Part shown: positions 465 through 31,860 of the stretch, in pieces | Position numbering within the stretch: position 1 is the first letter of the stretch | Layout of the letters: every line of letters starts with the position of its first letter | NCBI GenBank assembly: GCA_049971465.1 | Contig: JBMFLB010000002.1 | Span: 1 to 39,797, forward strand | Origin: Minisyncoccia bacterium | Lineage (GTDB): Bacteria > Patescibacteriota > Minisyncoccia > UBA6257 > GWB1-50-10 | Reading direction: 5' to 3' | Length of the DNA: 39,797 bases | Position numbers and translations under genes: made by a program | The notes under the pieces: model-generated | Seen by the model: the letters and a program-made list of their open reading frames with translations, nothing else | Databases searched by the model: none | What the model was told of the DNA's origin: nothing

Positions 465-473
465 TGATATAAT
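465..473 (+). promoter_or_regulatory. extended -10 element (TGATATAAT) 7 nt upstream of ATG 481
   Basis: TG at 465-466, TATAAT at 468-473, then 7 nt to the ATG. The same geometry recurs at other first genes in this window. Confidence 0.45.
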
Positions 474-480
474 GGTAAGT

Positions 481-1179
481 ATGAAAGCAAACAAAGGAAT
501 ATTTATTGCTATCGGGCTTGTTGTTCTGGCTTTATTTGCTGTGATAATTTATAACCCTAAGGGACAAAATCAATTAAATCAAAACGAAGAATCTCAACCC
601 ACGCAAACACCATCTTCTTACCAAACGTCTCCTTCTCCGGTCACAGAAAATACATTACCAATGACTACCAATCCAATAACCTGCGGAACAATAGATATGT
701 TAGAAGTCACTAGAGCGATACTACAACATAAAACTTTCCCAGTAGACAGCGAAAACGCCCTCGCTTGTGTTGATAATTCGCTTGAACAATGCCGCTATGC
801 AACAACAAATATCGTAACAACTTCTGGTAAAAAAATCCCACTGGCAATAGAACTGATTAATGAACAGTGCGCTATCAAATTTACTGATTCACATTATAAA
901 TGGCATGATTACTACTTAACGTGTTTTCTCCCTCAAGAAGCAAAAAGTTCTTTCTTCGCGGCTTTAAATAACCCAACCTCAATTTCTCTCACCGCAAATC
1001 AGCAAAAAGCCATAAAGACTATGACATTTATAGGCACAATCGCAGGACAAGCGATTGGTTTAGCTGGACTCAATATAATTGCACCACAATCTGCTTCATC
1101 GAGTAATCAAACGCCACTTGATTTCAAATTCGATCTCATTGGTACGAACTCTACTATTAACTGCAGAGGGATTAAGTAA
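481..1179 (+). CDS. hypothetical membrane-anchored/secreted protein
   Basis: ORF track gives 457..1179. I prefer ATG 481, which gives MKANKGIFIAIGLVVLALFAVII (a basic N-terminus followed by a hydrophobic helix). TGATATAAT at 465-473 lies 7 nt upstream of 481 and would be inside the ORF if 457 were used. The ectodomain contains Cys. No family recognised. Confidence 0.55.
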   Translation: MKANKGIFIAIGLVVLALFAVIIYNPKGQNQLNQNEESQPTQTPSSYQTSPSPVTENTLPMTTNPITCGTIDMLEVTRAILQHKTFPVDSENALACVDNSLEQCRYATTNIVTTSGKKIPLAIELINEQCAIKFTDSHYKWHDYYLTCFLPQEAKSSFFAALNNPTSISLTANQQKAIKTMTFIGTIAGQAIGLAGLNIIAPQSASSSNQTPLDFKFDLIGTNSTINCRGIK

Positions 1180-1338: not shown

Positions 1339-1415
1339 TGGTGGACCCGAGGGGATTTGAACCCCTGACCTCCTCGATGCCATCGAGGCGCTCTAGCCAA
1401 CTGAGCTACGAGCCC
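1339..1415 (-). tRNA. tRNA-Ala (anticodon GGC), CCA encoded
   Basis: The reverse complement folds as a cloverleaf: GGGCTCG ta GCTC agttggcta GAGC g CCTCG atGGCat CGAGG aggtc AGGGG ttcaaat CCCCT CGGGTCC a CCA. It has the G3:U70 alanine identity pair. It is the only tRNA here with an encoded CCA. Confidence 0.9.
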
Positions 1416-3025: not shown

Positions 3026-4025
3026 AAATATGACCATGAAACAAATTGTAATTACCGGAATTCAACCTAGCGGAAAATTACATATTGGCAATTATATTGG
3101 CGCAATTAAAACTTTTTTAACAATACAAAATAATAAAAATTATCAGCCAATTTTTTTTGTTGCTGATTATCATTCTATTACTGAAACATATGATTTTAAA
3201 GAAAAACAAAATATGATTTTAGATCTCATTGTAAACATGCTTGCTCTTGGATTAGACACAAAAAAAACATTATTTTTTTTACAATCACTAGTGCCAGCCC
3301 ATACTGAACTTGCTTGGCTATTAAATTGTTTTACTCCATTAGGCGAAGCAAAACGAATGACTCAATTTAAAGAAAAATCAGAGCATCAGCCAGAAAATAT
3401 AAATTTAGGATTGTTAACTTATCCTGTTTTAATGGCTGCTGATATTTTATTATATGACGCTCAATTAGTTACAATTGGTGATGATCAATTACAACATTTA
3501 GAATTAACACGAACATTAGCAAGAAAATTTAATAGTAAATTTGGAAAAACATTTATTGAGCCACAACCACTTTTAACTTTGGGATCAAGAATTATGAATT
3601 TAAATAATCCACTTAAAAAAATGTCGAAATCTACACCAAATGGATGTTTATTTCTTGATGATCCTCCTAATATTATCGAAACTAAAATTAAATCGGCAGT
3701 TACTGATTCTGGCCATGAAATAAAATATGATCCAACCAACAAAGCGGCAATTAGCAATTTAATAGCAATTTATCATGAAATAACCGGATTAGATATAAAA
3801 AAAATAGAAAAAAAATTTAGTAATAAAAGTTATTTAGAATTTAAAAAGGATTTAATTAATCAATTAATTAAATTTCTTCAACCATTTCAAGCTAATAAAA
3901 AATTATTATTAAAAAAACAAATATCAATTAAAAAACTAATTAAAGAACAATCAAAAAAAGCAAATAAAATTGCTAATAAAAAATTACAACTTGTTAAAAA
4001 GAAAATTGGATTAAATTTTTCTTAA
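3015..4025 (+). CDS. trpS: tryptophan--tRNA ligase
   Basis: Class I signatures are present: GIQPSGKLHIGNYIGA (HIGH-type) and KKMSKS. The size is about 330 aa. In-frame ATGs at 3030 and 3036 are alternative starts that avoid overlap with the upstream gene. Confidence 0.9.
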   Translation: MYNKNMTMKQIVITGIQPSGKLHIGNYIGAIKTFLTIQNNKNYQPIFFVADYHSITETYDFKEKQNMILDLIVNMLALGLDTKKTLFFLQSLVPAHTELAWLLNCFTPLGEAKRMTQFKEKSEHQPENINLGLLTYPVLMAADILLYDAQLVTIGDDQLQHLELTRTLARKFNSKFGKTFIEPQPLLTLGSRIMNLNNPLKKMSKSTPNGCLFLDDPPNIIETKIKSAVTDSGHEIKYDPTNKAAISNLIAIYHEITGLDIKKIEKKFSNKSYLEFKKDLINQLIKFLQPFQANKKLLLKKQISIKKLIKEQSKKANKIANKKLQLVKKKIGLNFS

Positions 4026-7000
4026 TCCAATCCAAAGATCACTGTCATTTATTTTAGTTTGTAATTCCGCAGTAAATTTTTCGCCTTTTTTTAATTCTAT
4101 ATTTTTTGCATTAACTTCATTTTTTAATTTTTTTTCAAACTTATTAATAATATGTTGTATTTCTTCGGATCCTTCAATCATCAAATCAATATTGTCTTTA
4201 AATTGCAATCCACTATCTTGTCGAAAATCTTGAATTATTCTTACTAAATCTCTAAATATTCCTTCTTCTAATAACTCATGAGTAATGCGGGTATCTAATA
4301 TAAATTCTTCAGCTAAATCTTTTTTAATATCAATATCTTTAACATTAATTTCTTCAGATAAAATTTGTATTAATGAATCAAAATCTTCAGTTGTTAATTT
4401 AATATCTTTAAACAAATTAACATTTAATTGTAAATTGCCTAATGGTTGTCTAAGTTTAATACCAGCTTCTGATCGTTTAGCTAAAACATTAGAAGCAATT
4501 TTTTGAATTAAATTCATAGCAAATAACAAATCATCATCAATAAATAATTTATTAACTTTAGGCCAATTTTCTAAATGGACCGATAAAGATTTTTTATGAT
4601 CAAAAGTTTGATATAAAGATTCAGCAAAAAATGGCATAAATGGAGCAATTAATTTACTAAATTCTAATAACACATAGCCCAATACTGCCGATGCTTGTTC
4701 ATAGTCATCTGAGGAGATAGGTTTTTGAAATCTTCGTCGCGATCTTCTAATATACCACCGTGATAAATTATCAACAAAATCATAAATTTTTCTTGTTGCT
4801 GAATAAACATCATATTCTTTTAAGTCATTAGTAACATCTTTAACTAATTTATTAAACAAAACCAAAAGCCATCGATCTAATATATTATTTAATTTTTCTT
4901 TACTAATATCTTTATTACTAAATTGTTCAACATAAGTCCAATAAAAAACATAAGAGTTATAAATAATTGAAACAAATTGTCTAAAAATTTTAACTAAATC
5001 TTGTTCATCAAATTTTTTTGCATCAGCCGGAGCATTAACTGAATAAAAATACCAACGCACAACATCGCTTCCATATTTATTTATCATTGACCACGGATCA
5101 ACAATATTACCTTTAGATTTAGACATTTTTTGACCATTTTTATCTAATACCAATCCAAGAGTAATAACATTTTTATACGCCGGACCTTTATCTAATAATG
5201 TGGATACTGCTAACAATGTATAAAACCAACCGCGGGTTTGATCAATGCCCTCACTTATATAATCAGCTGGAAAATCTAATATCTCCTGTTTTTTAAAATC
5301 AAATGGATAATGATTTTGAGCAAAAGGCATTGAACCAGAATCAAACCAAACATCAGCAAGTTCTGGTATTCTTTCCATTATTCCTTTACATTTTATACAT
5401 TTAAATTTTATTTCATCAATAAAAGGACGATGTAAATCACAAATACCAAATTGATTGCGAGGCAAATTATAAAAATCAAATTCAATTAATTGAGCTGGTT
5501 GAATAAAACTATTTTTATTGATTGAAGAATGTTTTTGAAGCAATGCTTCTTCTTCATCCCAACCAAACGCAACTGTTAATATCATCCAAATTGTATATTC
5601 GTGGCTGACAATAAGAATTTTTTTGTTTTTATATTTTGTTTCTACATCATTTAAAAATTCATAAACTCTTTTAGCAAGATCATTTAAATTTTCACCATGA
5701 GGAGGATTTTTATAAAATTTTTCTTGTTCATTTTCAAAATATTTATGGTAACTATCCGGATTGCCGCCATTAAAATCGCCAACATTTATTTCTCTTAATC
5801 GTGAATCAAAAATAACTTTTTTGTTTAATTTTTTAGCAATTATTTCTGCTGTTTGTTTGGTTCTTAAAAAATCAGAGGAAAAAATTAAATCTATTTTTTT
5901 ATCCTGCAATTTCTTTGCAATATTTTCAATTTGATTTATTCCTTTTAAAGTTAAAGGATATAAATCTTTATCAGCTGGATTACAATTTACAATGTTTTTC
6001 AACAAAGTTTCTGATTCACCATGACGCAAAACAAAATAATGATTAGTAGACTTTCCTGTTTGTTCTGCTAATGTTTTTCTGCTATCAATAACAATTTGAT
6101 TGCCACATTTTTTACATTGCCATACTGGTAATGGTGTGCCCCAAAATCTTGCCCGTGAAAAATTCCAATCTTTAATATCTCTTAACCATTCACCAAATCG
6201 CCCATTTTTTATATATTCTGGGATCCAATTTATTTTTTTATTATTAGCAATTAATTTATCTTTAACTTTTGACATTCCAACAAACCACGATTGTTTTGCA
6301 TAATATAAAAGCGGTGTTTTGCAGCGCCAGCAAAATGGATATTCATGGGTATAAGCTTCTTTCTTTAATAAATAATTTTTTTCAACCAAAATGTTTAAAA
6401 TTTTATTTTCTGTTTCTAAATCTTTAACATAAAGTCCAGCTAAATCATTTAATTCAGCAATAAATTTACCTTGTTCATTTACTGTATGATATTGAGGTAA
6501 TCCAATTTTTTTACCAAGCTGAAAGTCTTCTTCACCATACATAACAGCAGTATGTACTACGCCCGTACCATCTTCCACTGAAACAAAATCAGCAGGATAT
6601 ATCTTATAACTTTTATTAGATTTTAATTTTTTAACATAAAACAATGGCTCATATCTTAATCCAATCAAATCACTACCATTATATTTTTGAATGATTTTAT
6701 AATTTTGATTAATAACTACTAATCTTTTTTCTGCTAAAATATAAAATTCATTGCCAACTTCAATTTTTACATATTTTATTTTTGGATTTATTGCTAAAGC
6801 AACATTGCCTGGTAAAGTCCAAGGAGTAGTTGTCCAAGATAAAATAAAAGTATGATCATTAATTTTTGTATTACCAATTTTTTGATTTGCTAATAATTTA
6901 AATTTAATAAACACTGATGTTTCAGTAACAGTATCATAACCTTGAGCAACTTCATGGGATGATAATGATGTCCCACAGCGCGGACACCAATGAACAATCT

Positions 7001-7526
7001 TATAATCTTGATAAAATAATTTTTTGTTCCAAATTTTTTTAATAATCCACCATAATGTTTCAATATATCGATTGGTATAGGTAATATAAGGATGTTGTAA
7101 ATCTAACCAAAATCCAATTCTTTTAGTAATATTTTCCCATTCTTTTTTATAAGACCAAACTGATTCTTTACATAATTTATTAAATTCAGCAATACCAAAC
7201 TGTTCAATGTCCTTTTTTGTTTTAAATCCTAATGTTTTTTCTACTTCTAATTCAACTGGCAAACCATGAGTATCCCACCCACTTTTCCTAGGAACATAAA
7301 AACCTGACATTGTTTTAAAACGTAAAATAATATCTTTAAAACTTCGCGCTAAAATATGATGAATTCCCGGCTTACCATTAGCAGTTGGCGGTCCTTCAAA
7401 AAAAACAAATTTTTTATGATTTTTATTTTTTTCTAAACTTTTTTCAAAAACTTTATTTTCTTCCCACCAATTTAAAATTTTTTCTTCTATTGCTGGTAAA
7501 TTAAAATGATCAATATTTTTTAACAT
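4011..7526 (-). CDS. ileS: isoleucine--tRNA ligase with an inserted histidine-phosphatase domain
   Basis: 1171 aa. It has PPTANGKPGIHHILAR (HIGH), the editing-domain motif TTTPWTLPGN, KMSKSKGN, and Zn-knuckle Cys pairs (CPRCG, CWRCK, CKKCG, CIKCKG). Residues about 494-686 carry histidine-phosphatase motifs (see findings). Confidence 0.95.
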   Translation of the reverse strand: MLKNIDHFNLPAIEEKILNWWEENKVFEKSLEKNKNHKKFVFFEGPPTANGKPGIHHILARSFKDIILRFKTMSGFYVPRKSGWDTHGLPVELEVEKTLGFKTKKDIEQFGIAEFNKLCKESVWSYKKEWENITKRIGFWLDLQHPYITYTNRYIETLWWIIKKIWNKKLFYQDYKIVHWCPRCGTSLSSHEVAQGYDTVTETSVFIKFKLLANQKIGNTKINDHTFILSWTTTPWTLPGNVALAINPKIKYVKIEVGNEFYILAEKRLVVINQNYKIIQKYNGSDLIGLRYEPLFYVKKLKSNKSYKIYPADFVSVEDGTGVVHTAVMYGEEDFQLGKKIGLPQYHTVNEQGKFIAELNDLAGLYVKDLETENKILNILVEKNYLLKKEAYTHEYPFCWRCKTPLLYYAKQSWFVGMSKVKDKLIANNKKINWIPEYIKNGRFGEWLRDIKDWNFSRARFWGTPLPVWQCKKCGNQIVIDSRKTLAEQTGKSTNHYFVLRHGESETLLKNIVNCNPADKDLYPLTLKGINQIENIAKKLQDKKIDLIFSSDFLRTKQTAEIIAKKLNKKVIFDSRLREINVGDFNGGNPDSYHKYFENEQEKFYKNPPHGENLNDLAKRVYEFLNDVETKYKNKKILIVSHEYTIWMILTVAFGWDEEEALLQKHSSINKNSFIQPAQLIEFDFYNLPRNQFGICDLHRPFIDEIKFKCIKCKGIMERIPELADVWFDSGSMPFAQNHYPFDFKKQEILDFPADYISEGIDQTRGWFYTLLAVSTLLDKGPAYKNVITLGLVLDKNGQKMSKSKGNIVDPWSMINKYGSDVVRWYFYSVNAPADAKKFDEQDLVKIFRQFVSIIYNSYVFYWTYVEQFSNKDISKEKLNNILDRWLLVLFNKLVKDVTNDLKEYDVYSATRKIYDFVDNLSRWYIRRSRRRFQKPISSDDYEQASAVLGYVLLEFSKLIAPFMPFFAESLYQTFDHKKSLSVHLENWPKVNKLFIDDDLLFAMNLIQKIASNVLAKRSEAGIKLRQPLGNLQLNVNLFKDIKLTTEDFDSLIQILSEEINVKDIDIKKDLAEEFILDTRITHELLEEGIFRDLVRIIQDFRQDSGLQFKDNIDLMIEGSEEIQHIINKFEKKLKNEVNAKNIELKKGEKFTAELQTKINDSDLWIGLRKI

Positions 7527-15969: not shown

Positions 15970-16908
15970 ATGAAATGGCATTTATTGATTCTGGTTATTT
16001 TATTTTTATTAATTAACTTTTATTTTATTCAATTAGTTTATGCTTTTGATACTAGACTTATAAATAATATTGGACAAGGAGCAACACCGCCAGAATTAGT
16101 AAAAAATATTTATAATTTTTCTATGTTAGTTGGCGGCATCATTGCAGTAGGAGTTATTGTTTATGCAGGAATCTTAAGAATTTTTTCATCAGGCAATCCT
16201 AAAAAAATACAAGAAAGCAATTCCTACATTACTGGAGCAATATTTGGCTTGTTATTATTGTTTGGTGCATCTATATTATTTAATACAATTAATCCAAGAA
16301 TAGCTAATTTAACTTTTGCTATGTTTCGAATCCAAGTGCCAAATCCTCCACCTCGTCAATCACAGGTTGAATCTTGGCCCCAACCATTATCAGATCCATC
16401 ATACCAACTTGATGATGCTACAGCGCGATGTATGCTTCAAGCACGAGGCATCTCAGTAAATAAATCAAATTGTACCTATATTGGTCAAACAAACTGTACC
16501 AGTTTAGATGGGATAACCGCAACAGCAGTTCATGGCGCAATCCAACTTGCTCAACTTGCTAAAAAAAACAATAAAAACATAACCATAACTGGCGGCACTG
16601 AATATTGGCTGCATAAAACTCATGGGCCAGGAAAATCAATACTTGATATCCATTATGACAAAGATTTAATTAATGATGTTAAAAATTTACAAAGCGGAAA
16701 TACGATTAACTCTTGGATTTGTGAAAAAGGTTCAAAAGATTTTGGCCAAGCTTGTGATACAAATGACACTGATCATTTTCATATTGTTTTTTCTGGAAAT
16801 TATTCAATTAATGATTTAAAGCGTTTATATGGTTCTACTTGGCTCCATTGTCTTTACAACGATAAAGAGAGTGATTCTGCAAATACAAATAATTCTGGAT
16901 CTAACTAA
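15970..16908 (+). CDS. VirB2/TrbC-type pilin-like N-terminal module fused to a possible LAS/M15-type zinc hydrolase domain
   Basis: Signal/TM helix, then two helices (FSMLVGGIIAVGVIVYAGILRIFSSGNPKK...ITGAIFGLLLLFGASILF) as in the small pilin-like genes at 24822-26134. After a Pro-rich linker comes a Cys-rich domain with ITITGGTEYWLHKTHGPGKSILDIH and DTDHFHIVF (H...D plus HxH). Confidence 0.5.
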   Translation: MKWHLLILVILFLLINFYFIQLVYAFDTRLINNIGQGATPPELVKNIYNFSMLVGGIIAVGVIVYAGILRIFSSGNPKKIQESNSYITGAIFGLLLLFGASILFNTINPRIANLTFAMFRIQVPNPPPRQSQVESWPQPLSDPSYQLDDATARCMLQARGISVNKSNCTYIGQTNCTSLDGITATAVHGAIQLAQLAKKNNKNITITGGTEYWLHKTHGPGKSILDIHYDKDLINDVKNLQSGNTINSWICEKGSKDFGQACDTNDTDHFHIVFSGNYSINDLKRLYGSTWLHCLYNDKESDSANTNNSGSN

Positions 16909-24821: not shown

Positions 24822-25244
24822 ATGGTGAAAGAACTAAAAATTAATAATTTAATATTTTCAATCATTTTCTTATCAATAATATTTTTGCCTTTCATGGCTC
24901 AAGCAATAAACATTTGGAATGGTACCGGAGGGTGTAACAATGCTTCCAGTGCTTCTGCCAGTTGCAATGTCTGCGATGCAATTATTGTAACACAAAATAT
25001 AATTAATCAAATTTTAGTCCCATTAGCTTTAAGCGGAGCTACAATTATGATACTGGTTGGTGGTATAATGATGATGACCTCAAGTGGAAGCGAAGAAAGA
25101 TTAAAAAAAGCAAAAGGAATTTTATTTAATGCAATAATAGGATTAGTAATTGCATTAGTTGCTTGGGTAATCGTTAATGAAATATTACATGTTCTTGTCG
25201 ATGCTCCTACCGCCAGTTGGTGGGCAACAATTCAATGTCAATAA
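24822..25244 (+). CDS. VirB2/TrbC-type 'T4SS pilin-like' small membrane protein, paralog 1
   Basis: Signal peptide (FLPFMAQA), a Cys-containing segment (GGCNNASSASASCNVCDA), then two helices separated by a charged loop: LALSGATIMILVGGIMMMTSSGSEERLKKAKGILFNAIIGLVIALVAWVIV. Confidence 0.6.
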   Translation: MVKELKINNLIFSIIFLSIIFLPFMAQAINIWNGTGGCNNASSASASCNVCDAIIVTQNIINQILVPLALSGATIMILVGGIMMMTSSGSEERLKKAKGILFNAIIGLVIALVAWVIVNEILHVLVDAPTASWWATIQCQ

Positions 25245-25774
25245 TGAAAAACACAAAATATATTTTCATAATTTTAATAACAGGTTTAATTTTGATTAAA
25301 CCAATTTTTGCTTTAGCTGATGAAGAATTACAGATAAATTTCTGGTATATCAAAGATATGGAGTGTGTCCCATGTCTTGAGAATGAGGATTGCAATTACA
25401 ACTCCCTCTTGACAAAATATACCAGTGAAACGGTGTGCCTCAACCATCTTCTAGATCTAGAGCAGACATCAGAAGATAGTGGTGTAACTATCAGAACAAC
25501 AACTTATCGACCATCAAGGGGATTACAAAATCCAATAAGTGGAGCTAGTAATGTTTTTGATGTAATAAAAAAAGTAATAAAATGGTTGGTTATAACTGTT
25601 GCGCCAATTTATGTCATAATGATTTTGGTTGGAGCATATCAAATATTATTTTCTGCTGGTGATCCAAAAAAAGTTCTTATTGGCAGAAATACAATAATGT
25701 ATGCTACAATTGCATATGTTATAATATTATTAAGCTGGGGACTGAGTAGTATAGTAGCCAGCTTATTACAATAA
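25244..25774 (+). CDS. VirB2/TrbC-type pilin-like small membrane protein, paralog 2 (longer ectodomain)
   Basis: ATG 25244 overlaps the upstream stop (TAATG). Signal peptide (LIKPIFALA), a Cys-rich ectodomain, then VITVAPIYVIMILVGAYQILFSAGDPKKVLIGRNTIMYATIAYVIILLSWGL. Confidence 0.6.
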   Translation: MKNTKYIFIILITGLILIKPIFALADEELQINFWYIKDMECVPCLENEDCNYNSLLTKYTSETVCLNHLLDLEQTSEDSGVTIRTTTYRPSRGLQNPISGASNVFDVIKKVIKWLVITVAPIYVIMILVGAYQILFSAGDPKKVLIGRNTIMYATIAYVIILLSWGLSSIVASLLQ

Positions 25775-25798
25775 AAGGTCGAAAATATAACAATATAA

Positions 25799-26134
25799 AT
25801 GAAAAAAACAATAATTAAAGATTTAGCAATAATAGGTCTGATAAGTTTGCCGCTATTAATTTTTGCTCAAGAAGAAGCTCCAACCTATGTATCAAGTATA
25901 ACTGATATACAAAGCATAGCAATGAGTATTCTAAAATGGCTTTATACACTATTCTTTATAGTTGCTGCTATTTTTATAATTTTAGCAGCAGTTGGTTATT
26001 TAACAGCTCAAGGAGAAGAAAAAAAGGTTGAGCAGGCAAAGAAAAAACTTATCAATGCTGTAATTGCTATTGTTATTGCTTTATTAGCAATGAGCTTTAG
26101 GGCAGTTATTGAAAATTTTCTTCGCGGCAGATAA
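25799..26134 (+). CDS. VirB2/TrbC-type pilin-like small membrane protein, paralog 3
   Basis: Signal peptide (LPLLIFAQE), then LYTLFFIVAAIFIILAAVGYLTAQGEEKKVEQAKKKLINAVIAIVIALLAMSF. It has the same two-helix/charged-loop layout as paralogs 1 and 2. Confidence 0.6.
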   Translation: MKKTIIKDLAIIGLISLPLLIFAQEEAPTYVSSITDIQSIAMSILKWLYTLFFIVAAIFIILAAVGYLTAQGEEKKVEQAKKKLINAVIAIVIALLAMSFRAVIENFLRGR

Positions 26135-26202: not shown

Positions 26203-27471
26203 ATGAAATCAAAACAAATTTACTTTATATTATTTTTATTAATCACTATTAGCGCTATTATTCATATTTATCATATAAATATTCCTGCTAAACCAGTTTT
26301 TGATGAAAGTTTTTTTGCTACTTTTTCGGCTGATTATATAAAAAATCAATCATTTTTTGATATCCATCCTCCATTAGGAAAATTAATTTATGCGTTTATT
26401 TTAAAAATTTATAATCCTAATTTTCAAACTTATAAATTTATACAAATATTACCAAAGATGTATGCTAAAGCAATAAATATACCTTTTAATGATTATCCTT
26501 ATATAATATTAAGATTAACTAATTCATTTTTTGGTATATTGTTAATTCCATTATTTTTTTTATTTTTACAAAAATTAAATTTAAACGATAAATCAAGTTT
26601 ATTTGGGGCTTTTTTAATAACTTTTGAACCAGTTTTTATTATTGAATCAAGATTAATTTTATTAAATACTTTTTTATTTGTATTTGGATTATTGTTTTTA
26701 ATTAATTATTTAGATAATAAAAATGTTGCTGCTGGGATATTTTTAGGTTTAACATTAAGCACAAAATTAACTGGAATATTATTTTTATCTTTGCCATTTG
26801 CTTTAATTTTAATAACTAATGACAAAACTAAATTAAAAAATATGCAGAAAATTTTAATAATTGCATTTTTTATTTTATTTACTATATGGATTACTACGAT
26901 ATTAATTTTTAACTTTAATATCAATCAATATACATTGATTACTATTTCATTATTTAACAAAACATTACCGCAATTAAATAATATAATTAATTATATTTTA
27001 AATAGTGTTAGCGGTTATTTATTTATTGGCGGCACTAACAGCGGCCAGAGCTATTGGTTTGAATGGCTTATTATGCATGGCGTTATTAAATATTATGATC
27101 ACAAAATATTTTTAATTGGTAATATTGCAATTTGGTATGGTGTATTAGCAGGAATAATTTTTTCAATAATATACCTAATAAATTTTTTAAAAAATAAAAT
27201 CAAAAATAAAAAAATTAGCCCTGATAAAAATTTAATTGCTTTATTTCTTAGTTTTATTTTTTCTTTAGAAATATTTATTACTATTAATAGACCAACGTTT
27301 TTATATCACTATTTTATTTCTTTAATTTTTGGTTTAGCTTTAATTTCTCATTTATTTGATAAATATCTATTAAATATTCAAAATAAAAATTTACGGAATA
27401 AAATAATATTTTCTGCTATCTTTTCTGTATTATTGTTTTTTATTTTAACTATCCCGTTCTTTATTATTTAA
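26203..27471 (+). CDS. GT39/PMT-family (dolichyl/polyprenyl-phosphate-mannose-dependent) glycosyltransferase
   Basis: A polytopic 422-aa protein. Its first extracytoplasmic loop carries VFDESFFATFSADYIKNQSFFDIHPPLGKLIYA, which contains the DE...HPPLGK motif typical of PMT-type (GT-C) transferases. Confidence 0.7.
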   Translation: MKSKQIYFILFLLITISAIIHIYHINIPAKPVFDESFFATFSADYIKNQSFFDIHPPLGKLIYAFILKIYNPNFQTYKFIQILPKMYAKAINIPFNDYPYIILRLTNSFFGILLIPLFFLFLQKLNLNDKSSLFGAFLITFEPVFIIESRLILLNTFLFVFGLLFLINYLDNKNVAAGIFLGLTLSTKLTGILFLSLPFALILITNDKTKLKNMQKILIIAFFILFTIWITTILIFNFNINQYTLITISLFNKTLPQLNNIINYILNSVSGYLFIGGTNSGQSYWFEWLIMHGVIKYYDHKIFLIGNIAIWYGVLAGIIFSIIYLINFLKNKIKNKKISPDKNLIALFLSFIFSLEIFITINRPTFLYHYFISLIFGLALISHLFDKYLLNIQNKNLRNKIIFSAIFSVLLFFILTIPFFII

Positions 27472-27488
27472 TTTTTATATAAATTAGA

Positions 27489-27494
27489 TACAAT
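27489..27494 (+). promoter_or_regulatory. -10 box (TACAAT) 8 nt upstream of the tRNA-Leu 5' end
   Basis: TACAAT at 27489-27494, then ttaaataa (8 nt), then GCCCTCG at 27503. The hexamer and spacing match those of tRNA-Val. Confidence 0.4.
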
Positions 27495-27502
27495 TTAAAT
27501 AA

Positions 27503-27584
27503 GCCCTCGTGGCGGAATTGGCATACGCGTGGCGCTTAGAACGCCATCCCGCAAGGGTTAGAGGTTCGAGTCCTCTCGAGGGCA
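27503..27584 (+). tRNA. tRNA-Leu (anticodon TAG), long variable arm
   Basis: Acceptor GCCCTCG/CGAGGGC (perfect). Anticodon arm TGGCG ctTAGaa CGCCA. Variable arm tCCCgcaaGGGtt. T arm AGAGG ttcgagt CCTCT. Discriminator A. 82 nt, no encoded CCA. Confidence 0.9.
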
Positions 27585-27763
27585 CAGTATTTAACTTTCA
27601 GAAATTTGCCCGACGAGCTCTGGGCGCGTTGCGTTGCAATGTAGGAAAATGCTGGCCCGCCGCCAGATGCCATTTCTTACTCTGGTATTCGCACAAGGAT
27701 GAGAATTCCTTAATTTTAGATTGGATTTTAGTATTTACCTTTTAACTTTGTAATGATATTATG

Positions 27764-27833
27764 GTAAAAGCAGGATGGGGGTTGAAATTTCTGGAGAATG
27801 ATGTACAGTAAAAACAGATGGGGGTTGAAATTT
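27764..27833 (+). repeat. two about 26-27-nt direct repeats upstream of the WD40-like gene
   Basis: gtaaaagcaggatgggggttgaaattt (27764-27790) and gtaaaaacagatgggggttgaaattt (27808-27833). They differ by one mismatch and one indel and are separated by 17 nt. Confidence 0.5.
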
Positions 27834-27893
27834 AAAAAACCAAAAAAATTTAATTGGTCGATATTATAAAAATTAAACGATAATTTAAAAACA

Positions 27894-28844
27894 ATGAAGG
27901 AAGGTTTTGAACAATTTAATAAACAGGTTGAAGGAAAAGAAAAAAAACCACATGAAAGTTTGGAAGAAAAGGAAAAAGCTAAACAAGCTATTCAAAAAGC
28001 CGAAGGATTAAAAGCAAAGATGGAGCAAGAACTGGATGCTCTTTCTAAAAAACTCTGGCAGGAAAAATGGAAACAAATGAATCCAAAAGAACTCGTTTTT
28101 GTTGAAAAAAAGAAAAACTATCAACTCAAAGAAACTCTTAGGAGGCCTAGTCAGGTGTGGGCCCTCGAAGTTCTGCCTGATGATGAGATTATTTCTGGAA
28201 ATGAAAATGGCACCATTGAAATCTTGGAAAAAGATCAACAAGGAAAATATCAAGTCAAAGAAACTCTTGAGAAGGCACATAAAGGCGGGGTGCGGACCTT
28301 CCAAGTTCTATCTGACCATGAGATGGTCTCTGGAGGCGATGATGGCACTATTAAATTCTGGGAAAAAGATCAACAAGGAAAATATCAAGTCAAAGAAACT
28401 CTTGAGGGACCTACAGTACCCTTTAAAGGAGTACCTAGTATTTGCGGAGTAACGGCTCTCGAAGTGTTGCCTGATGAGATTGTTGCTGGATACGAGTCTG
28501 GCGTAATTAGAATATGGAAAAAAGACCAACAAGGAAAATATCAAGCCAGAGAATCTTTAAACCTCGGCCACCAGACTCCTATAGGCAGAACCCCCCTCCA
28601 AGTTCTGGCTGACCATCGGATTGTTGCTGGAGAAGATGATGGCTGGATTCAAATTCTTAAAGAAGATGAACAAGGAAACCTTCATATCCAAGAAAGTATT
28701 AGGGTACCAACTAACACTTGGTTTGACCCTAAGAAACGTCCTTACGAGGTGAATACCCTCCAAGTTCTGCCTGATGGCCGGATTTTTGCTGGATGCGGCG
28801 ATCACGCTATTAAAATCTTGGATGGAGAAAAAGAAAAGATATAA
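27894..28844 (+). CDS. coiled-coil + WD40-like beta-propeller repeat protein (G+C-anomalous)
   Basis: About 70 aa of charged helix (EEKEKAKQAIQKAEGLKAKMEQELDALSKKL), then five 45-50-aa repeats of the form V..L.VLPD..IVSG..DGTIKIW.KD.QGKYQ.KE.L. Examples are AHKGGVRTFQVLSDHEMVSGGDDGTIKFWEKD and VNTLQVLPDGRIFAGCGDHAIKILD. No signal peptide. Confidence 0.7.
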   Translation: MKEGFEQFNKQVEGKEKKPHESLEEKEKAKQAIQKAEGLKAKMEQELDALSKKLWQEKWKQMNPKELVFVEKKKNYQLKETLRRPSQVWALEVLPDDEIISGNENGTIEILEKDQQGKYQVKETLEKAHKGGVRTFQVLSDHEMVSGGDDGTIKFWEKDQQGKYQVKETLEGPTVPFKGVPSICGVTALEVLPDEIVAGYESGVIRIWKKDQQGKYQARESLNLGHQTPIGRTPLQVLADHRIVAGEDDGWIQILKEDEQGNLHIQESIRVPTNTWFDPKKRPYEVNTLQVLPDGRIFAGCGDHAIKILDGEKEKI

Positions 28845-29003
28845 ATTAATCAATTTTAGTAGGTAAAATTCTGGCTGAGCATAATTGTTTTTATCTTTAT
28901 TTTCAATACATCATAAAAAATGTTTTAAATAAACAGTTGTTGTGGCGTCTGGCGGCGCCCCCCTCACACTGATACATAATGGTAGGGGCAGAATTCAAAA
29001 TTT

Positions 29004-29031
29004 TTGACAAAATCAGTAAAACTGATATACT
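29004..29031 (+). promoter_or_regulatory. sigma70-like promoter for rpsO (TTGACA-16 nt-TATACT)
   Basis: TTGACA at 29004-29009, a 16-nt spacer, TATACT at 29026-29031, then 7 nt to ATG 29039. Confidence 0.5.
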
Positions 29032-29038
29032 TTTAATA

Positions 29039-29299
29039 ATGCTCACTAAAAGACAAAAACAATTAGCAATAAAAAATTTTCAAAAACATGAAAATGATAC
29101 TGGATCGGCAGAAGTACAAATAGCTTTACTTACCAAACAAATAATTGCTTTAACCAACCATTTAAAAAAACATCCCAAGGATGTTTCTTCGCGCCGCGGC
29201 TTAATTTTAATGGTAAGCCAAAGAAGAAAACTTTTAAATTATCTTAAAATAAATGAACCAAAAAAATACGAAACTGTTATGAAAAAATTAGATCTATAA
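29039..29299 (+). CDS. rpsO: 30S ribosomal protein S15
   Basis: The sequence MLTKRQKQLAIKNFQKHENDTGSAEVQIALLTKQIIALTNHLKKHPKDVSSRRGLILMVSQRRKLLNYLK carries the S15 signature (DTGS.EVQ.A.LT..I..L..HL..H.KD..SRRGL). ORF track starts at 28979. ATG 29039 gives the canonical 86 aa. Confidence 0.9.
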   Translation: MLTKRQKQLAIKNFQKHENDTGSAEVQIALLTKQIIALTNHLKKHPKDVSSRRGLILMVSQRRKLLNYLKINEPKKYETVMKKLDL

Positions 29300-29300
29300 A

Positions 29301-29840
29301 ATGCTTAATTTTAGTGATCAAAGAGTTGGAATTTTTATTGACATACAAAATATTTATCATTCAGCAAAAAATTTATTTAATGCTCGAGTAAATTTTCAAA
29401 CATTAAGTAAATTTTTAAGCGGCAAAAGAAATCTTATTGTTGCTGTTGCTTATGTTGTAAAAAGCGAATTGGTTGCTGGTGAATTAAATTTTTTTGAAGC
29501 ATTAAAACAATTTGGTTTTGAATTAAGAATTAAAGATTTACAAATTTATCCTGATGGGACAAAAAAAGCAGATTGGGATGTTGGTATTGCGGTTGATGCA
29601 ATAAGAATGTCATCATTATTGGATGCTATTATTTTAGTTACTGGTGATGGAGATTTTGCACCATTAGTCACATATTTACAATTAGGATTAGGAAAACAGG
29701 TTGAAGTTGCAGCATTTAATAAAACTGCTTCAGCTAAATTAAAAGAAACAGCTGATAAATTTATTGACTTAGAATCTATTCCTGGTTTATTATTAGAATC
29801 TAAATCAACCAATGCTAAATCTCGAAAGAAAAATTTTTAA
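29301..29840 (+). CDS. NYN/LabA-like (DUF88) domain protein, predicted PIN-like ribonuclease
   Basis: It has VGIFIDIQNIYHSAK, ADWDVGIAVDAIR and DAIILVTGDGDFAPLVTYLQ..GKQVEVAAF, the acidic motif series of NYN/LabA domains. It starts 2 nt after the rpsO stop and overlaps pnp by 29 nt. Confidence 0.75.
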   Translation: MLNFSDQRVGIFIDIQNIYHSAKNLFNARVNFQTLSKFLSGKRNLIVAVAYVVKSELVAGELNFFEALKQFGFELRIKDLQIYPDGTKKADWDVGIAVDAIRMSSLLDAIILVTGDGDFAPLVTYLQLGLGKQVEVAAFNKTASAKLKETADKFIDLESIPGLLLESKSTNAKSRKKNF

Positions 29841-31860
29841 AACTGAATTAAATGGTTCGCCAATTAGTCTAGAAATATCAAAATTAGCAGGTAAAGCAAA
29901 TGCTGCGGTTTTAGGTAAATATGGCGATACTGCTGTTTTAGCAACAATTGTTATCTCGCCATCAGAAAAAAATTTAGATTATTTTCCATTAACTGTTGAT
30001 TATGAAGAAAGATTTTATGCTGCTGGTAAAATTATTGGCAGTCGTTTTATTAGAAGAGAAGGCCGACCATCAGATGAAGCAATTCTATCGTCCCGTTTAA
30101 TTGATCGAACAATTAGACCGTTATTTGATGAACGATTAAGATATGAAGTACAAGTGAGTATAACTGTTTTTGCTTATGATGAAGAACACGATCCTGATGT
30201 TATTGCATTATTAGCAACATCAACCGCTTTAGGTATTTCCGAAATTCCTTGGGATGGACCAGTAGCTGGAGTAAAAACAATAATACCATCTGATTATCCA
30301 ACCACTGCTTTTTTTGCTGGTACAGAAGATGTTATTAATATGATTGAATTTGAAGGAAAAGAAGTTGAAGAACAAAAAATATATGAACTATTTGAAAGTT
30401 CACAGCAACAAATTAAAAAATTAATTGAATTTCAAAAACCAATTATTAAACAATTTAGTAAGACAAAAATTGAAATAAAACAAGTACCAATTTCTTTAGA
30501 TCTTCAACAAGAAATAAATAAATTATTAACCGAACAAAATATTGCTGATGCTGTTTTTAATAAAAAAATAAATGAATTTAAACAAAACTTTTTTACAACT
30601 TTACAACAAAAAAATAGCAGTGAAGAAGAATTAAAAGAAGCAAATAATATTTTTGAAAATAAAATAAATGAATTTATTCATAAACAAATTTTAAATTTAA
30701 ATCAAAGACCTGATGGTAGAAAATTAGATCAAATTAGAGATTTATATACGGAAATACATTTATTTAATCGAACCCATGGATCAGCATTATTTGTAAGAGG
30801 GGAAACACAAATTTTAGCAATCACTACTCTTGCTTCTCCTAGTGCTGAACAATTAGTGGAAACAATGGAAACAAATACTCATAAAAGATTTATGTTACAT
30901 TATAATTTTCCAGGGTTTTCATCAGGCGAAACAAATAAATCAAGAGGAGGACCAGGAAGAAGAGAAATAGGACATGGAGCATTAGCAGCTAAAGCATTAA
31001 ATTCACTTATTCCTCCTAAAGAACAATTTCCTTATACCATCAGAATAGTTGCTGAAACATTATCTTCAAATGGCTCAACTTCTATGGCTTCGGTTTGCGC
31101 TGGATCATTATCATTAATGGATGCGGGCGTTCCAATTCCAAAACATTGTGCAGGCATATCAATTGGCTTAATAACTAACAATGGTGATTTATCAAATTTT
31201 AAATTAATAACTGATATTCAAGGACCAGAAGATCATTATGGTGATATGGATTTTAAAGTTGCCGGGACAGAACAAGGAGTTAATGCTATTCAAATGGATG
31301 TTAAAATAAAAGGAATAAATTTAGAAATTTTTAAACAAGCATTAAGTCAAGCTAAAAAAGCAAGATTAGAAATATTAAATGTATTAAATCAAACAATAAA
31401 TAAACCACGAGAACAAATTTCACCATTTGCTCCAATTATTAAAACAATAATAATTCCTAAAGAAAAAATTGGTGAATTAATTGGACCCGGCGGTAAAAAC
31501 ATAAATAATATTATTGAAGAAAGTCTTAATCAAATAACAATTGATATTGAACAAGATGGAACAGTATATATTATTGGCAACAATATTGATTTAATAAATA
31601 AAGCTTATAATACAATTAAAAATTTAATACGAGAATATAAAGTTGGAGAAATGGTAGAGGGAACAATAATAAAAATTTTAGATTTTGGGGCAATTGTTGA
31701 TTTAGGTAGCGGCAAAGATGGAATGATTCATATATCAGAATTACAAAATGGCTATGTAAAAAGAGTTGAAGATGTTGTCAAGTTAGGAGAAAAAGTAAGA
31801 GCAAAAATCATAAGAATTGAACCAGATGGAAGAATTGCTTTATCTATAAAAAATAAATAA
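29812..31860 (+). CDS. pnp: polyribonucleotide nucleotidyltransferase (PNPase)
   Basis: It has two RNase PH-like domains (GKYGDTAVLATIV; RPDGRKLDQIRDL; GSALFVRGETQ; GPEDHYGDMDFKVAGT), a KH domain (IGPGGKNINNII) and an S1 domain (GEMVEGTIIKILDFGAIVDL). Confidence 0.95.
   Translation: MLNLERKIFKTELNGSPISLEISKLAGKANAAVLGKYGDTAVLATIVISPSEKNLDYFPLTVDYEERFYAAGKIIGSRFIRREGRPSDEAILSSRLIDRTIRPLFDERLRYEVQVSITVFAYDEEHDPDVIALLATSTALGISEIPWDGPVAGVKTIIPSDYPTTAFFAGTEDVINMIEFEGKEVEEQKIYELFESSQQQIKKLIEFQKPIIKQFSKTKIEIKQVPISLDLQQEINKLLTEQNIADAVFNKKINEFKQNFFTTLQQKNSSEEELKEANNIFENKINEFIHKQILNLNQRPDGRKLDQIRDLYTEIHLFNRTHGSALFVRGETQILAITTLASPSAEQLVETMETNTHKRFMLHYNFPGFSSGETNKSRGGPGRREIGHGALAAKALNSLIPPKEQFPYTIRIVAETLSSNGSTSMASVCAGSLSLMDAGVPIPKHCAGISIGLITNNGDLSNFKLITDIQGPEDHYGDMDFKVAGTEQGVNAIQMDVKIKGINLEIFKQALSQAKKARLEILNVLNQTINKPREQISPFAPIIKTIIIPKEKIGELIGPGGKNINNIIEESLNQITIDIEQDGTVYIIGNNIDLINKAYNTIKNLIREYKVGEMVEGTIIKILDFGAIVDLGSGKDGMIHISELQNGYVKRVEDVVKLGEKVRAKIIRIEPDGRIALSIKNK

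What the first reader, a model, noticed from the sequence alone, without database searches (positions are those of the whole stretch)
27585..28960. G+C-anomalous coiled-coil/WD40-like gene inserted 3' of tRNA-Leu and bracketed by a GC-rich 15-bp inverted repeat
Seen in the sequence: the 60-nt lines I counted inside 27894-28844 range from 32% to 60% G+C. The flanking GT39 and rpsO regions are about 12-25%. The segment begins directly after tRNA-Leu. It opens with a non-coding GC-rich patch (27608-27672) that ends in CGCCGCCAGATGCCA (27658-27672). The reverse complement of 28943-28957 is CGCCGCCAGACGCCA, a 14/15 match, so the gene is bracketed by inverted repeats about 1.3 kb apart.

A GC-rich 15-mer occurring twice in inverted orientation is very unlikely by chance in DNA this AT-rich. 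No integrase or transposase is present, and I found no duplication of the tRNA 3' end.

Inference: this is a horizontally acquired or mobile, non-autonomous cassette carrying a eukaryote/STAND-like WD40 protein-interaction module. That is unusual cargo for a tiny genome.
Basis: partly seen in the sequence, partly recalled or inferred. Interest (0 to 1): 0.7.

Follow-up and report, generated by a model that had tools for sequence, protein, structure and literature searches.

The report
Foreign WD40 gene islet beside tRNA-Leu
A small, compositionally foreign gene for a repetitive WD40 propeller protein fills the gap between tRNA-Leu and rpsO in a tiny CPR bacterial genome; its relatives also sit just after tRNA genes elsewhere, so it looks like leftover cargo of an integrating element, and the 15-bp inverted repeat around it is real but is probably not a transposon end.

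Summary
tRNA-Leu(TAG) lies at 27503-27585. An intact 316-aa WD40 gene lies at 27894-28844. G+C is 39% across 27608-28990, against 27.6% for the rest of the window. A 14/15 G+C-rich inverted repeat (27658-27672 / 28943-28957) reached the observed match in at most 1 of 1000 composition-preserving shuffles.

About half of the G+C excess comes from atypical codon usage (z 4.3). Distant relatives keep the tRNA-Leu…rpsO-NYN-pnp order without this gene. Family members in two other contigs, one of them clearly CPR-like, also sit directly 3' of a tRNA (Gln, Glu). One member lies on a viral contig. This points to an acquired islet, probably cargo of a tRNA-integrating element whose integrase is gone.

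The repeat is not shown to be an element end:
- It does not coincide with the compositional boundaries.
- It has no target-site duplication and no extension beyond 15 bp.
- It has no third copy in the window.
- It is absent from the other family loci.

Just inside the right arm lies a decayed, inverted 5' end of a second family copy. The repeat may therefore be a rearrangement scar, but this is not demonstrated.

The protein's function is unknown. No close sister genome exists in the databases searched. Interest is modest.

The parts
27503..27585 (+). tRNA-Leu (anticodon TAG). It is the native left neighbour and the anchor of the slot.
   Evidence: ARAGORN and Rfam, 56.6 bits. The same tRNA-Leu(TAG) lies upstream of rpsO-NYN-pnp in L001 and L002.
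27586..27598 (+). 13-nt direct repeat, copy 1 (AGTATTTAACTTT). It starts 2 nt after the tRNA discriminator base.
   Evidence: It recurs 12/13 at 27730-27742 (D20). A recurrence of this 13-mer within the next 295 nt appeared in 2 of 5000 block shuffles. The test was chosen after seeing the repeat.
27599..27729 (.). Left G+C-rich non-coding patch (47% G+C; core 27608-27672 is 65%), bracketed by the 13-nt direct repeat.
   Evidence: No Rfam family matches. It folds no better than shuffles on either strand (z 0.09 and -0.46). No similarity to a tRNA, to Xer, or to the post-tRNA DNA of L001/L002.
27658..27672 (+). Left arm of the 15-bp inverted repeat (CGCCGCCAGATGCCA).
   Evidence: (I12). It overlaps a small local hairpin, CTGGC-N5-GCCAG, at 27652-27666.
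27730..27742 (+). 13-nt direct repeat, copy 2 (AGTATTTACCTTT).
27765..27893 (+). A+T-rich upstream region of the gene. It holds two copies of GATGGGGGTTGAAATTT (27774-27790 and 27817-27833, 43 nt apart), a promoter-like site at 27782-27809, and the motif ACGATAATT shared with L081 near the start codon.
   Evidence: (D16). Comparison with L081. Promoter function is inferred only.
27894..28844 (+). Intact gene for a 316-aa protein: an N-terminal helical region (about residues 1-60) followed by a WD40 beta-propeller of 5-6 blades.
   Evidence: Pfam WD40, 50.2 bits. Best PDB sequence match 2YMU, E 3.8e-21. AlphaFold2 pLDDT 80, helices then 25 strands. Foldseek top hits are WD40 propellers such as Sec13. 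G+C 0.403 against 0.335 expected from its amino acids with host codons, z 4.3. GC3 0.31 against 0.09-0.25.
28110..28406 (+). Tandem DNA repeat inside the gene (period 135 nt, 2.2 copies, 80% identical), which indicates recently amplified blades.
   Evidence: D1 (83% between the first two copies).
28868..28941 (-). Decayed 5' end of a second, inverted family copy: promoter-region homologue, then ATG at 28872-28870 and a few codons (MLSQNFTY*).
   Evidence: Homologous to L081 56-128, the region upstream of and into the nearest family gene. Local alignment z 6.3-7 against block shuffles. blastn 73% over 71 nt. The start codon is in register with those of L081 and L334.
28943..28957 (+). Right arm of the 15-bp inverted repeat (TGGCGTCTGGCGGCG).
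   Evidence: It lies directly outside the relic 5' region. It forms a local hairpin, GGCGTC-N4-GGCGCC. The single difference from the left arm is a U.G pair if the + strand is read as RNA (from the sequence).
28942..28990 (.). Right G+C-rich non-coding patch (63% G+C).
   Evidence: No Rfam match. No excess structure.
29004..29031 (+). Promoter-like site for rpsO (TTGACA-16-TATACT with TG). It marks the right boundary of the islet and ends 7 nt before the rpsO ATG at 29039.
   Evidence: 11 of 12 consensus positions. rpsO-NYN-pnp follows at 29039-31860.

Best explanation
The window is from a Patescibacteria (CPR) bacterium related to Microgenomates. About 1.4 kb (roughly 27599-28990) between tRNA-Leu(TAG) and the rpsO promoter is an acquired islet.

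The islet carries one intact gene of a sparse family of small proteins. Each family member has an N-terminal helical region, a variable number of near-identical WD40 blades, and a C-terminal 'WDGEK'. The islet also carries the decayed 5' end of a second family copy in inverted orientation.

Inferred origin: the gene arrived as cargo of an element that integrates next to tRNA genes, such as a prophage or integrative element. The element's recombinase and most other DNA have since been lost, and the WD40 gene has been kept.

Inferred status of the repeat: the 15-bp inverted repeat is a real duplication, but it is a by-product of local rearrangement between family copies in opposite orientation, or a short shared cis-element. 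It is not the terminal repeat of a transposon.

The protein is most likely a cytoplasmic, oligomerising beta-propeller binding module. Its partner is unknown.
For: **Shown**
1. *Composition.* Gene G+C is 0.403 against 0.335 expected from its own amino acids with host codon usage (z 4.3). GC3 is 0.31 against a host range of 0.09-0.25. The excess also holds in the non-repeat N-terminal part.
2. *Slot.* tRNA-Leu(TAG)…rpsO-NYN-pnp is conserved in L001 and L002, with a tyrosine recombinase instead of WD40 between them. L208 also has the recombinase upstream of rpsO. L001 carries an exact 16-nt duplicate of the tRNA-Leu 3' end next to that recombinase, so the slot is a recombination site in a relative.
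3. *Family context.* The profile search gave 183 proteins at E<=1e-10. In L334 (30% G+C, CPR-like gene content) the gene starts 56 nt after tRNA-Gln, with GC3 0.37 against host 0.21. In L336 it starts 132 nt after tRNA-Glu. With the window, that is 3 of 3 such loci with enough upstream sequence. In this window only about 1 in 35 genes is the first gene after a tRNA.
4. *Same anomaly in the nearest homologue.* The gene in L081 is 39.6% G+C within 24.6% G+C flanks.
5. *Viral link.* One member lies on an IMG/VR viral contig with a small terminase subunit.
6. *Relic of a second copy.* Window 28941->28868 (minus strand) is homologous to the L081 upstream region plus start codon.
7. *No structured RNA.* The flanks match no Rfam family and fold no better than shuffles.
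Against: - No integrase gene, no duplicated tRNA 3' end and no significant cassette-flanking direct repeat were found in the window, L334 or L336. The integration mechanism is therefore inferred, not seen.
- The tRNA association rests on three loci. The affiliation of L336 is not established.
- The nearest homologue is only 48% identical, so no donor or recent transfer is identified. A gene resident that long should have drifted to host composition, unless the donors are unsampled.
- No close sister genome exists in the databases searched (best NYN 70%, best PNPase 56%). Presence or absence at this junction is therefore tested only in distant relatives.
- The left arm is not shown to lie in DNA homologous to the relic copy. 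Apart from the 15-mer and a non-significant 22-mer, the two flanks are unrelated.
- The near-perfect conservation of only 15 bp is not explained by simple decay.
Confidence: 0.5

Rival explanations
1. Repeat-bounded, non-autonomous mobile cassette. The 15-bp arms are terminal inverted repeats recognised in trans by a transposase, and the WD40 gene is cargo.
For: The repeat is real and non-random. It brackets the whole gene with its upstream region. The cargo is compositionally foreign.
Against: - The arms are not at the compositional boundaries (27608 and 28990 against 27658 and 28957).
- No target-site duplication is visible next to the arms.
- There are only two copies in 39.8 kb.
- All hits to the 15-mer in the viral and metagenome scans were single hits with unrelated flanks, none in a contig below 36% G+C.
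- Homologous genes in L081, L334 and L336 have no such repeat.
- No transposase is present in the window.
Confidence: 0.1
2. Resident gene with an intrinsic composition bias. The gene is vertically inherited in this lineage. Its higher G+C comes from amino-acid composition plus repeat homogenisation (gene conversion) or selection on codons. The tRNA neighbourhood is coincidence or promoter sharing.
For: - About half of the excess over the genome mean is explained by amino-acid content (expected 0.335 against a genome mean of 0.28).
- Blades are being homogenised or amplified (80-83% DNA identity here, 89% in L334).
- The same excess is seen in L081 and L334 although the proteins are only 47-48% identical. 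That is odd for repeated recent transfers.
Against: - The non-repeat N-terminal part also exceeds host GC3 (0.22 against about 0.14 here; 0.42 against 0.21 in L334).
- The G+C-rich non-coding patches are not explained.
- The three loci are at three different tRNAs and are not syntenic.
- The relatives examined do not have the gene at this slot.
Confidence: 0.15
3. RNA-level element. tRNA-Leu, the WD40 mRNA and rpsO are transcribed together. The two arms pair into a long-range stem that is cut (RNase III-like) or that insulates or stabilises the WD40 message.
For: - The one difference between the arms is a U.G wobble on the + strand, so all 15 positions can pair (from the sequence).
- The duplex is far more stable than the local hairpins (-40.5 against -13.8 and -13.2 kcal/mol).
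- The minimum-energy fold of 27586-29038 contains the stem.
Against: - Any 15-bp G+C-rich complement would fold this way, so the fold is not evidence of function.
- Promoter-like sites lie inside the arms, and rpsO has its own strong promoter-like site.
- No covariation test is possible, because there are no homologous loci with the repeat.
- 15 bp is short for RNase III.
Confidence: 0.08
4. Invertible segment. The arms are sites for a site-specific recombinase that flips the 1.27-kb segment. The inverted relic 5' end is a trace of such flipping.
For: A short, exact inverted repeat with sharp edges flanks a gene and its promoter. An inverted partial copy of the 5' region lies just inside the right arm.
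Against: - No recombinase is present in the window.
- Inversion would not build an alternative intact gene.
- The relic's promoter has lost its -35 homologue (alignment).
- No second orientation can be looked for without reads.
Confidence: 0.05
5. Assembly chimera. A fragment from another organism was joined into the contig.
For: The composition shifts abruptly, and the gene has few homologues.
Against: - Both junctions are internal to a 39.8-kb contig of coherent CPR housekeeping genes.
- The flanking tRNA-Leu and rpsO are neighbours in relatives.
- GC3 of the gene is still low (0.31).
- Homologues lie in similar A+T-rich, tRNA-adjacent settings in independent assemblies.
Confidence: 0.03

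Closest known systems
tRNA-linked genomic islets and islands left by integrative elements or prophages (tyrosine-integrase type)
   Same: - The DNA is compositionally foreign and lies immediately 3' of a tRNA gene.
- It is absent from the same slot in relatives.
- The same tRNA-Leu slot in L001 holds a tyrosine recombinase and a 16-nt duplicate of the tRNA 3' end.
- Family members sit next to other tRNAs.
   Different: - There is no integrase here.
- There is no duplicated tRNA 3' end.
- The cargo is a single gene of about 1 kb.
- The only tRNA-proximal direct repeat is a 13-mer that brackets 131 nt, not the whole islet.
Recently amplified, highly repetitive bacterial WD40 propellers (for example the Nostoc punctiforme protein solved as PDB 2YMU; fragments with few identical blades that assemble into propellers, PDB 6R5Z)
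   Same: - It is the best sequence match among solved structures (2YMU, E 3.8e-21; 6R5Z also hit).
- Blades are near-identical at the DNA level within a protein, and blade number varies (2 to 7 or more) among homologues.
   Different: - The proteins are much smaller, with an N-terminal helical region and a conserved 'KKxNY' linker and 'WDGEK' tail.
- They are found in tiny A+T-rich CPR-type genomes.
- Oligomerisation is inferred, not tested.
- That the PDB entries represent blade amplification is from my own knowledge of that literature; the paper searches failed.
Phage morons (extra cargo genes in prophages, often near an end of the prophage)
   Same: It is a single accessory gene with atypical composition and its own promoter-like sites. 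One homologue lies on a viral contig beside a disrupted DNA methyltransferase and upstream of a small terminase subunit.
   Different: - Only 1 hit in 2.9 million viral contigs, and none in 50,697 deposited phage genomes.
- No other phage genes are present in the window.
- No terminator was detected.
MITE-like non-autonomous elements or composite cassettes with terminal inverted repeats
   Same: A short inverted repeat brackets a segment that lacks a transposase.
   Different: - No target-site duplication.
- Not multicopy.
- The repeats are not at the segment ends.
- The segment is far larger than a MITE.
- Homologous cargo elsewhere lacks the repeats.

Membership tests
WD40 repeat beta-propeller proteins | Sequence match to the WD40 repeat profile above the curated threshold | tested here: met
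   PF00400 scores 50.2 bits against a cut-off of 27. PDB WD40 proteins match down to E 3.8e-21.
WD40 repeat beta-propeller proteins | Several tandem repeats of about 40-45 residues | tested here: met
   Five units carry the motif LxVLPD..I(V/I)(S/A)G..(D/N)G.I.I(W/L). The DNA repeat period is 135 nt.
WD40 repeat beta-propeller proteins | Propeller fold of four-stranded blades | tested here: met
   AlphaFold2 model has pLDDT 80 and pTM 0.72, with 25 strands after two helices. Top Foldseek matches are WD40 propellers (Sec13, designed Tako8, G-beta) at probability 1.00. This is a prediction, not a solved structure.
   No NTPase family appears among the Pfam hits. The N-terminus is about 60 residues of helix. 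No PADLOC defence family matches convincingly.
tRNA-integrated genomic island (integrase type) | Located at the 3' side of a tRNA gene | tested here: met
   The G+C-rich DNA begins 22 nt after tRNA-Leu.
tRNA-integrated genomic island (integrase type) | Composition or codon usage differs from the host | tested here: met
   z 4.3 for G+C excess given the amino acids; GC3 0.31 against 0.09-0.25.
tRNA-integrated genomic island (integrase type) | Integrase (tyrosine or serine recombinase) gene within the island | tested here: not met
   tblastn with the L001 recombinase finds nothing in the window. Pfam scans of the window's ORFs found no recombinase.
tRNA-integrated genomic island (integrase type) | Direct repeat of the tRNA 3' end at the far boundary (attL/attR) | tested here: not met
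   The tRNA shows no similarity to either flank beyond chance. There is only a 13-nt repeat that starts 2 nt after the tRNA and brackets 131 nt.
tRNA-integrated genomic island (integrase type) | Absent from the same site in related genomes | tested here: inconclusive
   It is absent in L001, L002, L208, L210 and L212. These share only 51-56% PNPase or up to 70% NYN identity. No close relative exists in the databases.
Transposon or MITE with terminal inverted repeats | Inverted repeats at the exact ends of the inserted segment | tested here: not met
   The G+C-rich segment runs from 27608 to 28990, but the arms are at 27658-27672 and 28943-28957. A relic gene start lies between the gene and the right arm.
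Transposon or MITE with terminal inverted repeats | Target-site duplication flanking the repeats | tested here: not met
   The bases outside the arms (…GCTGGCC | … | CCCCCCT…) share no direct repeat.
Transposon or MITE with terminal inverted repeats | Multiple copies in the genome or related genomes | tested here: inconclusive
   There are two arms only in 39.8 kb. The rest of this genome is not available.
Invertible DNA segment (inverton) | Inverted repeats flanking the segment | tested here: met
Invertible DNA segment (inverton) | Both orientations present in the population, and a cognate invertase | not testable with these tools
   No reads are available, and no recombinase is present in the window.
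Known structured RNA (Rfam) | Match to a covariance model, or folding energy beyond shuffles | tested here: not met
   Only the tRNA passes. Nothing else in 27400-29100 scores better than E about 2.5. Fold z-scores lie between +0.56 and -0.89.

The most novel reading that the evidence does not exclude
The helix-plus-WD40 genes are themselves a small, integrase-free mobile gene cassette. It circulates among CPR bacteria and their phages and lands specifically just downstream of tRNA genes, by a mechanism that leaves no att duplication.

On this reading, partial copies of the 5' end next to intact copies are footprints of that mechanism. Such partial copies are seen here in inverted orientation, and in direct orientation fused to a broken methyltransferase on viral contig L338. 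The 15-bp repeat would be its recombination site in this lineage.
Probability: 0.1. Interest if true: 0.7.

Novelty: new member of a known kind. Interest (0 to 1): 0.35.

Why it matters
CPR bacteria have very small, streamlined genomes, and little is known about how they gain genes. This locus is a clean example of a single foreign gene held in a conserved tRNA/ribosomal-protein slot.

The three-for-three association of the gene family with tRNA genes suggests a repeatable route of entry. If that association holds in a wider survey, the family would be a useful marker for integration events, and possibly for phage traffic, in CPR genomes.

The protein family may also interest people who study propeller evolution and assembly, because its members have an oligomerisation helix and two to seven near-identical blades.

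None of this is established beyond the sequence patterns described. What the protein binds is unknown.

Tried and rejected
1. **Remnant of the Xer-like recombinase that fills this slot in relatives.** tblastn found nothing, and the six-frame translations are uninformative.
2. **Duplicated tRNA end, or pseudo-tRNA in the G+C patches.** No similarity to tRNA-Leu, to the other four tRNAs of the window, or to the tRNA-Gln and tRNA-Glu of L334 and L336.
3. **Longer degenerate inverted repeat around the 15-mer.** Neither the outer nor the inner flanks align better than shuffles (p 0.45 and 0.86).
4. **Structured RNA in the flanks.** No Rfam match at E<=10, and folding z-scores are near zero.
5. **The arms as relics of WD40 blade coding sequence.**
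   - The 15-mer matches the 'MVSGG' codons of blade 2 at 12/15 in frame.
   - Both arms translate to 'ASGG'.
   - However, a protein profile of 33 blades scores the flanks below zero bits, and a DNA profile finds nothing.
   - I keep this only as a lead.
6. **Direct repeats bracketing the whole cassette in the window, L334 and L336.** None is significant; the best is 17/20 in L334, p about 0.05.
7. **Shared non-coding motifs among the four family loci.** Only the window-downstream / L081-upstream match was found.
8. **Further copies of the repeat in public collections.**
   - The 15-mer gives many single hits in G+C-rich viral contigs.
   - The 24-mer around the left arm is absent from metagenome contigs, so the window is not in that collection.
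9. **Deposited phage genomes.** No homologue.
10. **Anti-phage defence families (PADLOC).** Nothing convincing.
11. **Literature searches.** All three attempts failed.
Full report
**1. What is in the sequence**

The window is a 39.8-kb contig of 27.9% G+C. It carries ordinary housekeeping genes of a Patescibacteria (CPR) bacterium:
- several aminoacyl-tRNA synthetases, gyrA, nusA, S1, ksgA, and T4SS-pilin-like genes;
- a GT39/PMT glycosyltransferase;
- rpsO, an NYN-domain gene, and pnp.

The PNPase is at best 56% identical to a Candidatus Microgenomatus genome. The NYN protein is at best about 70% identical to anything among 5.8 billion proteins. No close sister genome is therefore available.

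tRNA-Leu(TAG) lies at 27503-27585. After 308 nt of non-coding DNA comes an intact ORF at 27894-28844. After a further 194 nt comes rpsO, whose true start is the ATG at 29039. A strong promoter-like site at 29004-29031 precedes it.

**2. Check of the observation**

*Gene.* The ORF encodes a WD40 protein. PF00400 scores 50.2 bits against a cut-off of 27. The best solved relative is the cyanobacterial repetitive WD40 protein 2YMU. The AlphaFold2 model has pLDDT 80 and shows two N-terminal helices followed by a propeller. Foldseek hits are WD40 propellers.

*Composition.* G+C is 38-41% across 27501-29000, against 27.6% elsewhere.

*Inverted repeat.* The repeat 27658-27672 / 28943-28957 is a 14/15 match. 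These are the only two matches in the window, against 0.01 expected. Shuffles that preserve local composition reached an equally good G+C-rich match in at most 1 of 1000 trials.

*Limits of the repeat.* It is exactly 15 bp. The neighbouring sequence on either side does not align.

*Other G+C-rich non-coding DNA.* Besides the tRNA genes, the two patches that hold the arms are the only non-coding stretches of the window with 55% G+C or more over 40 nt.

**3. Is the gene foreign?**

I recomputed the expected G+C of every gene from its own amino-acid sequence and the codon table of the other genes.
- The WD40 gene should be 0.335 and is 0.403.
- This excess of 0.068 is 4.3 standard deviations above the other genes.
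- About half of the anomaly therefore comes from amino-acid content (GC1 is 0.59) and half from codon choice (GC3 is 0.31 against 0.09-0.25).
- The excess also holds for the non-repeat N-terminal part.

One other gene, 457-1179, shows a similar excess.

**4. The slot in relatives**

- L001 and L002 keep tRNA-Leu(TAG) upstream of rpsO-NYN-pnp, but a tyrosine recombinase on the opposite strand lies between them.
- L208 has the same recombinase before rpsO.
- L210 and L212 have other neighbours.
- In L001 an exact 16-nt copy of the tRNA-Leu 3' end lies 137 nt downstream, abutting the recombinase gene.

The slot is therefore variable and has seen site-specific recombination in at least one relative. 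The window has no recombinase and no remnant of one.

**5. The gene family and its neighbourhoods**

A single-sequence search found only nine homologues, the best 48% identical. A profile of four members found 183 proteins at E<=1e-10.

Members share three features:
- an N-terminal helical segment ending in 'KKxNY';
- 2 to 7 or more blades with the motif LQVLPDGRIVSGSxDxTIKIW;
- a 'WDGEK' tail.

Blades within one protein are often nearly identical in DNA.

| Locus | Host G+C | What lies upstream of the gene | Notes |
|---|---|---|---|
| Window | 28% | tRNA-Leu(TAG), 308 nt before the start | gene GC3 0.31, host about 0.14 |
| L334 (126-kb contig; T4SS pilin, PMT_2, dnaX) | 30% | tRNA-Gln, 56 nt before the start | gene GC3 0.37, host 0.21 |
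| L336 | 39% | tRNA-Glu, 132 nt before the start | gene frameshifted; G+C-rich repeat patch follows it |
| L081 (1 kb) | flanks 24.6% | only 115 nt available, no tRNA | gene 39.6% G+C |
| L082, L335 | 46%, 54% | a paralogue in L082; no tRNA in L335 | tandem arrays of two and six genes |
| L338 (IMG/VR viral contig) | 32% | gene cut by the contig start | see below |

In L338 the family gene is followed by a family-type start fused to a truncated DNA methyltransferase. A small terminase subunit lies downstream.

In this window only about 1 gene in 35 is the first gene after a tRNA. Three of three is therefore unlikely by chance (of the order of 1e-4). The sample is small, and I had no look-ups left to extend it.

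**6. The flanks**

Neither flank matches an Rfam family or folds better than shuffles.

*First new feature.* The 13-mer that begins 2 nt after the tRNA (27586-27598) recurs 12/13 at 27730-27742. It brackets the 131-nt left G+C patch. A recurrence appeared in 2 of 5000 shuffles. The test was chosen after the repeat was seen.

*Second new feature.* The minus strand of 28941->28868 is homologous to the region upstream of the L081 gene and to its first codons.
- Alignment z is 6.3-7.
- blastn gives 73% over 71 nt.
- The start codons are in register with L081 and L334.

This is a decayed 5' end of a second, inverted family copy. It lies between the stop codon of the intact gene and the right arm.

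*What I looked for and did not find.*
- No att-like duplication of the tRNA end in any of the three loci.
- No significant direct repeat around a whole cassette.
- No copy of the 15-mer in the other family loci.

**7. What the inverted repeat is**

It is a true duplication, but the evidence does not make it an element boundary:
- It lies inside the G+C-rich segment rather than at its ends.
- It has no target-site duplication.
- It is not repeated elsewhere in the window.
- Public collections gave only single hits with unrelated flanks.

The right arm sits immediately upstream of the relic gene start, and the left arm sits upstream of the intact gene. The simplest reading is therefore a scar of rearrangement between two oppositely oriented family copies, or a short element shared by their upstream regions. 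I could not show homology around the left arm.

*A lead.* The 15-mer matches the 'MVSGG' codons of blade 2 at 12/15 in frame. Blade profiles nevertheless see no blade relic in the flanks.

*RNA pairing.* If the whole stretch were one RNA, the arms would pair. The duplex energy is -40.5 kcal/mol, the minimum-energy fold contains the stem, and the single mismatch is a U.G pair. That would be true of any such complement, and there is no evidence of co-transcription.

**8. Verdict**

The idea of acquired DNA beside a tRNA is supported. The 'repeat-bounded mobile cassette' and 'eukaryote/STAND-like' parts are not supported.

My best explanation, at about 50% confidence, is a single-gene islet left by an element that integrates next to tRNAs. 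The gene is probably retained because the propeller protein is useful to the host.

The main rivals are:
- vertical inheritance with an intrinsic composition bias (about 15%);
- a true repeat-bounded cassette (about 10%);
- an RNA stem (about 8%);
- an invertible segment (about 5%);
- an assembly chimera (about 3%).

The finding is a new member of a known kind. The recurrent tRNA adjacency of this family is the part most worth following up.

Noticed in passing
window 457-1179 (+), next to tRNA-Ala at 1339-1415 (-): A second compositional outlier. This 240-aa ORF has an N-terminal membrane helix and no Pfam or PADLOC match. G+C is 0.375 against 0.319 expected from its amino acids, and GC3 is 0.29. 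It lies just beyond the 3' end of a tRNA, so it may be another acquired gene.
   Followed up: partly
window 4011-7526 (-): The isoleucyl-tRNA synthetase-like gene (1170 aa) has a histidine-phosphatase domain (His_Phos_1, residues 497-660, E 1e-34) inserted between parts of the class I synthetase core. This is an unusual domain insertion.
   Followed up: no
window 29004-29039: The rpsO promoter-like site (TTGACA-16-TATACT with an upstream TG) ends 7 nt before the ATG. The S15 mRNA may therefore be leaderless, which would leave no room for the usual S15 autoregulatory leader.
   Followed up: no
window 27774-27790 and 27817-27833: Two exact copies of GATGGGGGTTGAAATTT lie 43 nt apart upstream of the WD40 gene. 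Each opens a tiny ORF (MGVEISGE*, MGVEI*) and each contains a TTGAAA -35-like hexamer. Their meaning is unknown.
   Followed up: partly
L001 3980-3995 and 4117-4132: An exact 16-nt duplicate of the 3' end of tRNA-Leu(TAG) abuts the stop codon of a tyrosine recombinase that lies between the tRNA and rpsO. This is an att-like footprint in a Ca. Microgenomatus genome. The same recombinase position is seen in L002 and L208.
   Followed up: partly
L338 1-1047 (IMG/VR viral contig): A family WD40 gene is followed after 18 nt by an ORF whose first ~22 residues (MESQCAKLRKEYEELR…) look like a family N-terminus. The rest of the ORF is only the C-terminal third of a phage DNA methyltransferase (phrog_498, positions 336-450 of 633). 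The cassette seems to have disrupted the methyltransferase gene.
   Followed up: partly
L336 4116-5300: The family gene downstream of tRNA-Glu is split into two overlapping ORFs by a truncated repeat unit, either a pseudogene or a collapsed assembly. It is followed by a 63% G+C patch with three copies of TCCGCCTTGGGAGGATT and a hairpin.
   Followed up: no
L335 403-7405 and L082 61-1695: Tandem arrays of family-sized genes in G+C-richer organisms. L335 (54% G+C) has six back-to-back ~380-398-aa genes with overlapping stops and starts. Two of the six are family hits (P0132, P0135), and blastn with the window gene matches all along the array. L082 (46% G+C) has two family paralogues. These could be donor-type genomes.
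   Followed up: no
window 29301-29840 and loci L001, L002, L208-L212: An NYN/LabA-like gene is inserted between rpsO and pnp in every CPR genome examined. This is a conserved CPR variant of the classical rpsO-pnp operon.
   Followed up: no
window 15970-16908 and 24822-26134: Four T4SS-pilin-like genes (PF18895) are present. Three are in a row just upstream of the GT39 gene and tRNA-Leu. Two of those three have GC3 somewhat above the rest of the window (0.23-0.25).
   Followed up: no
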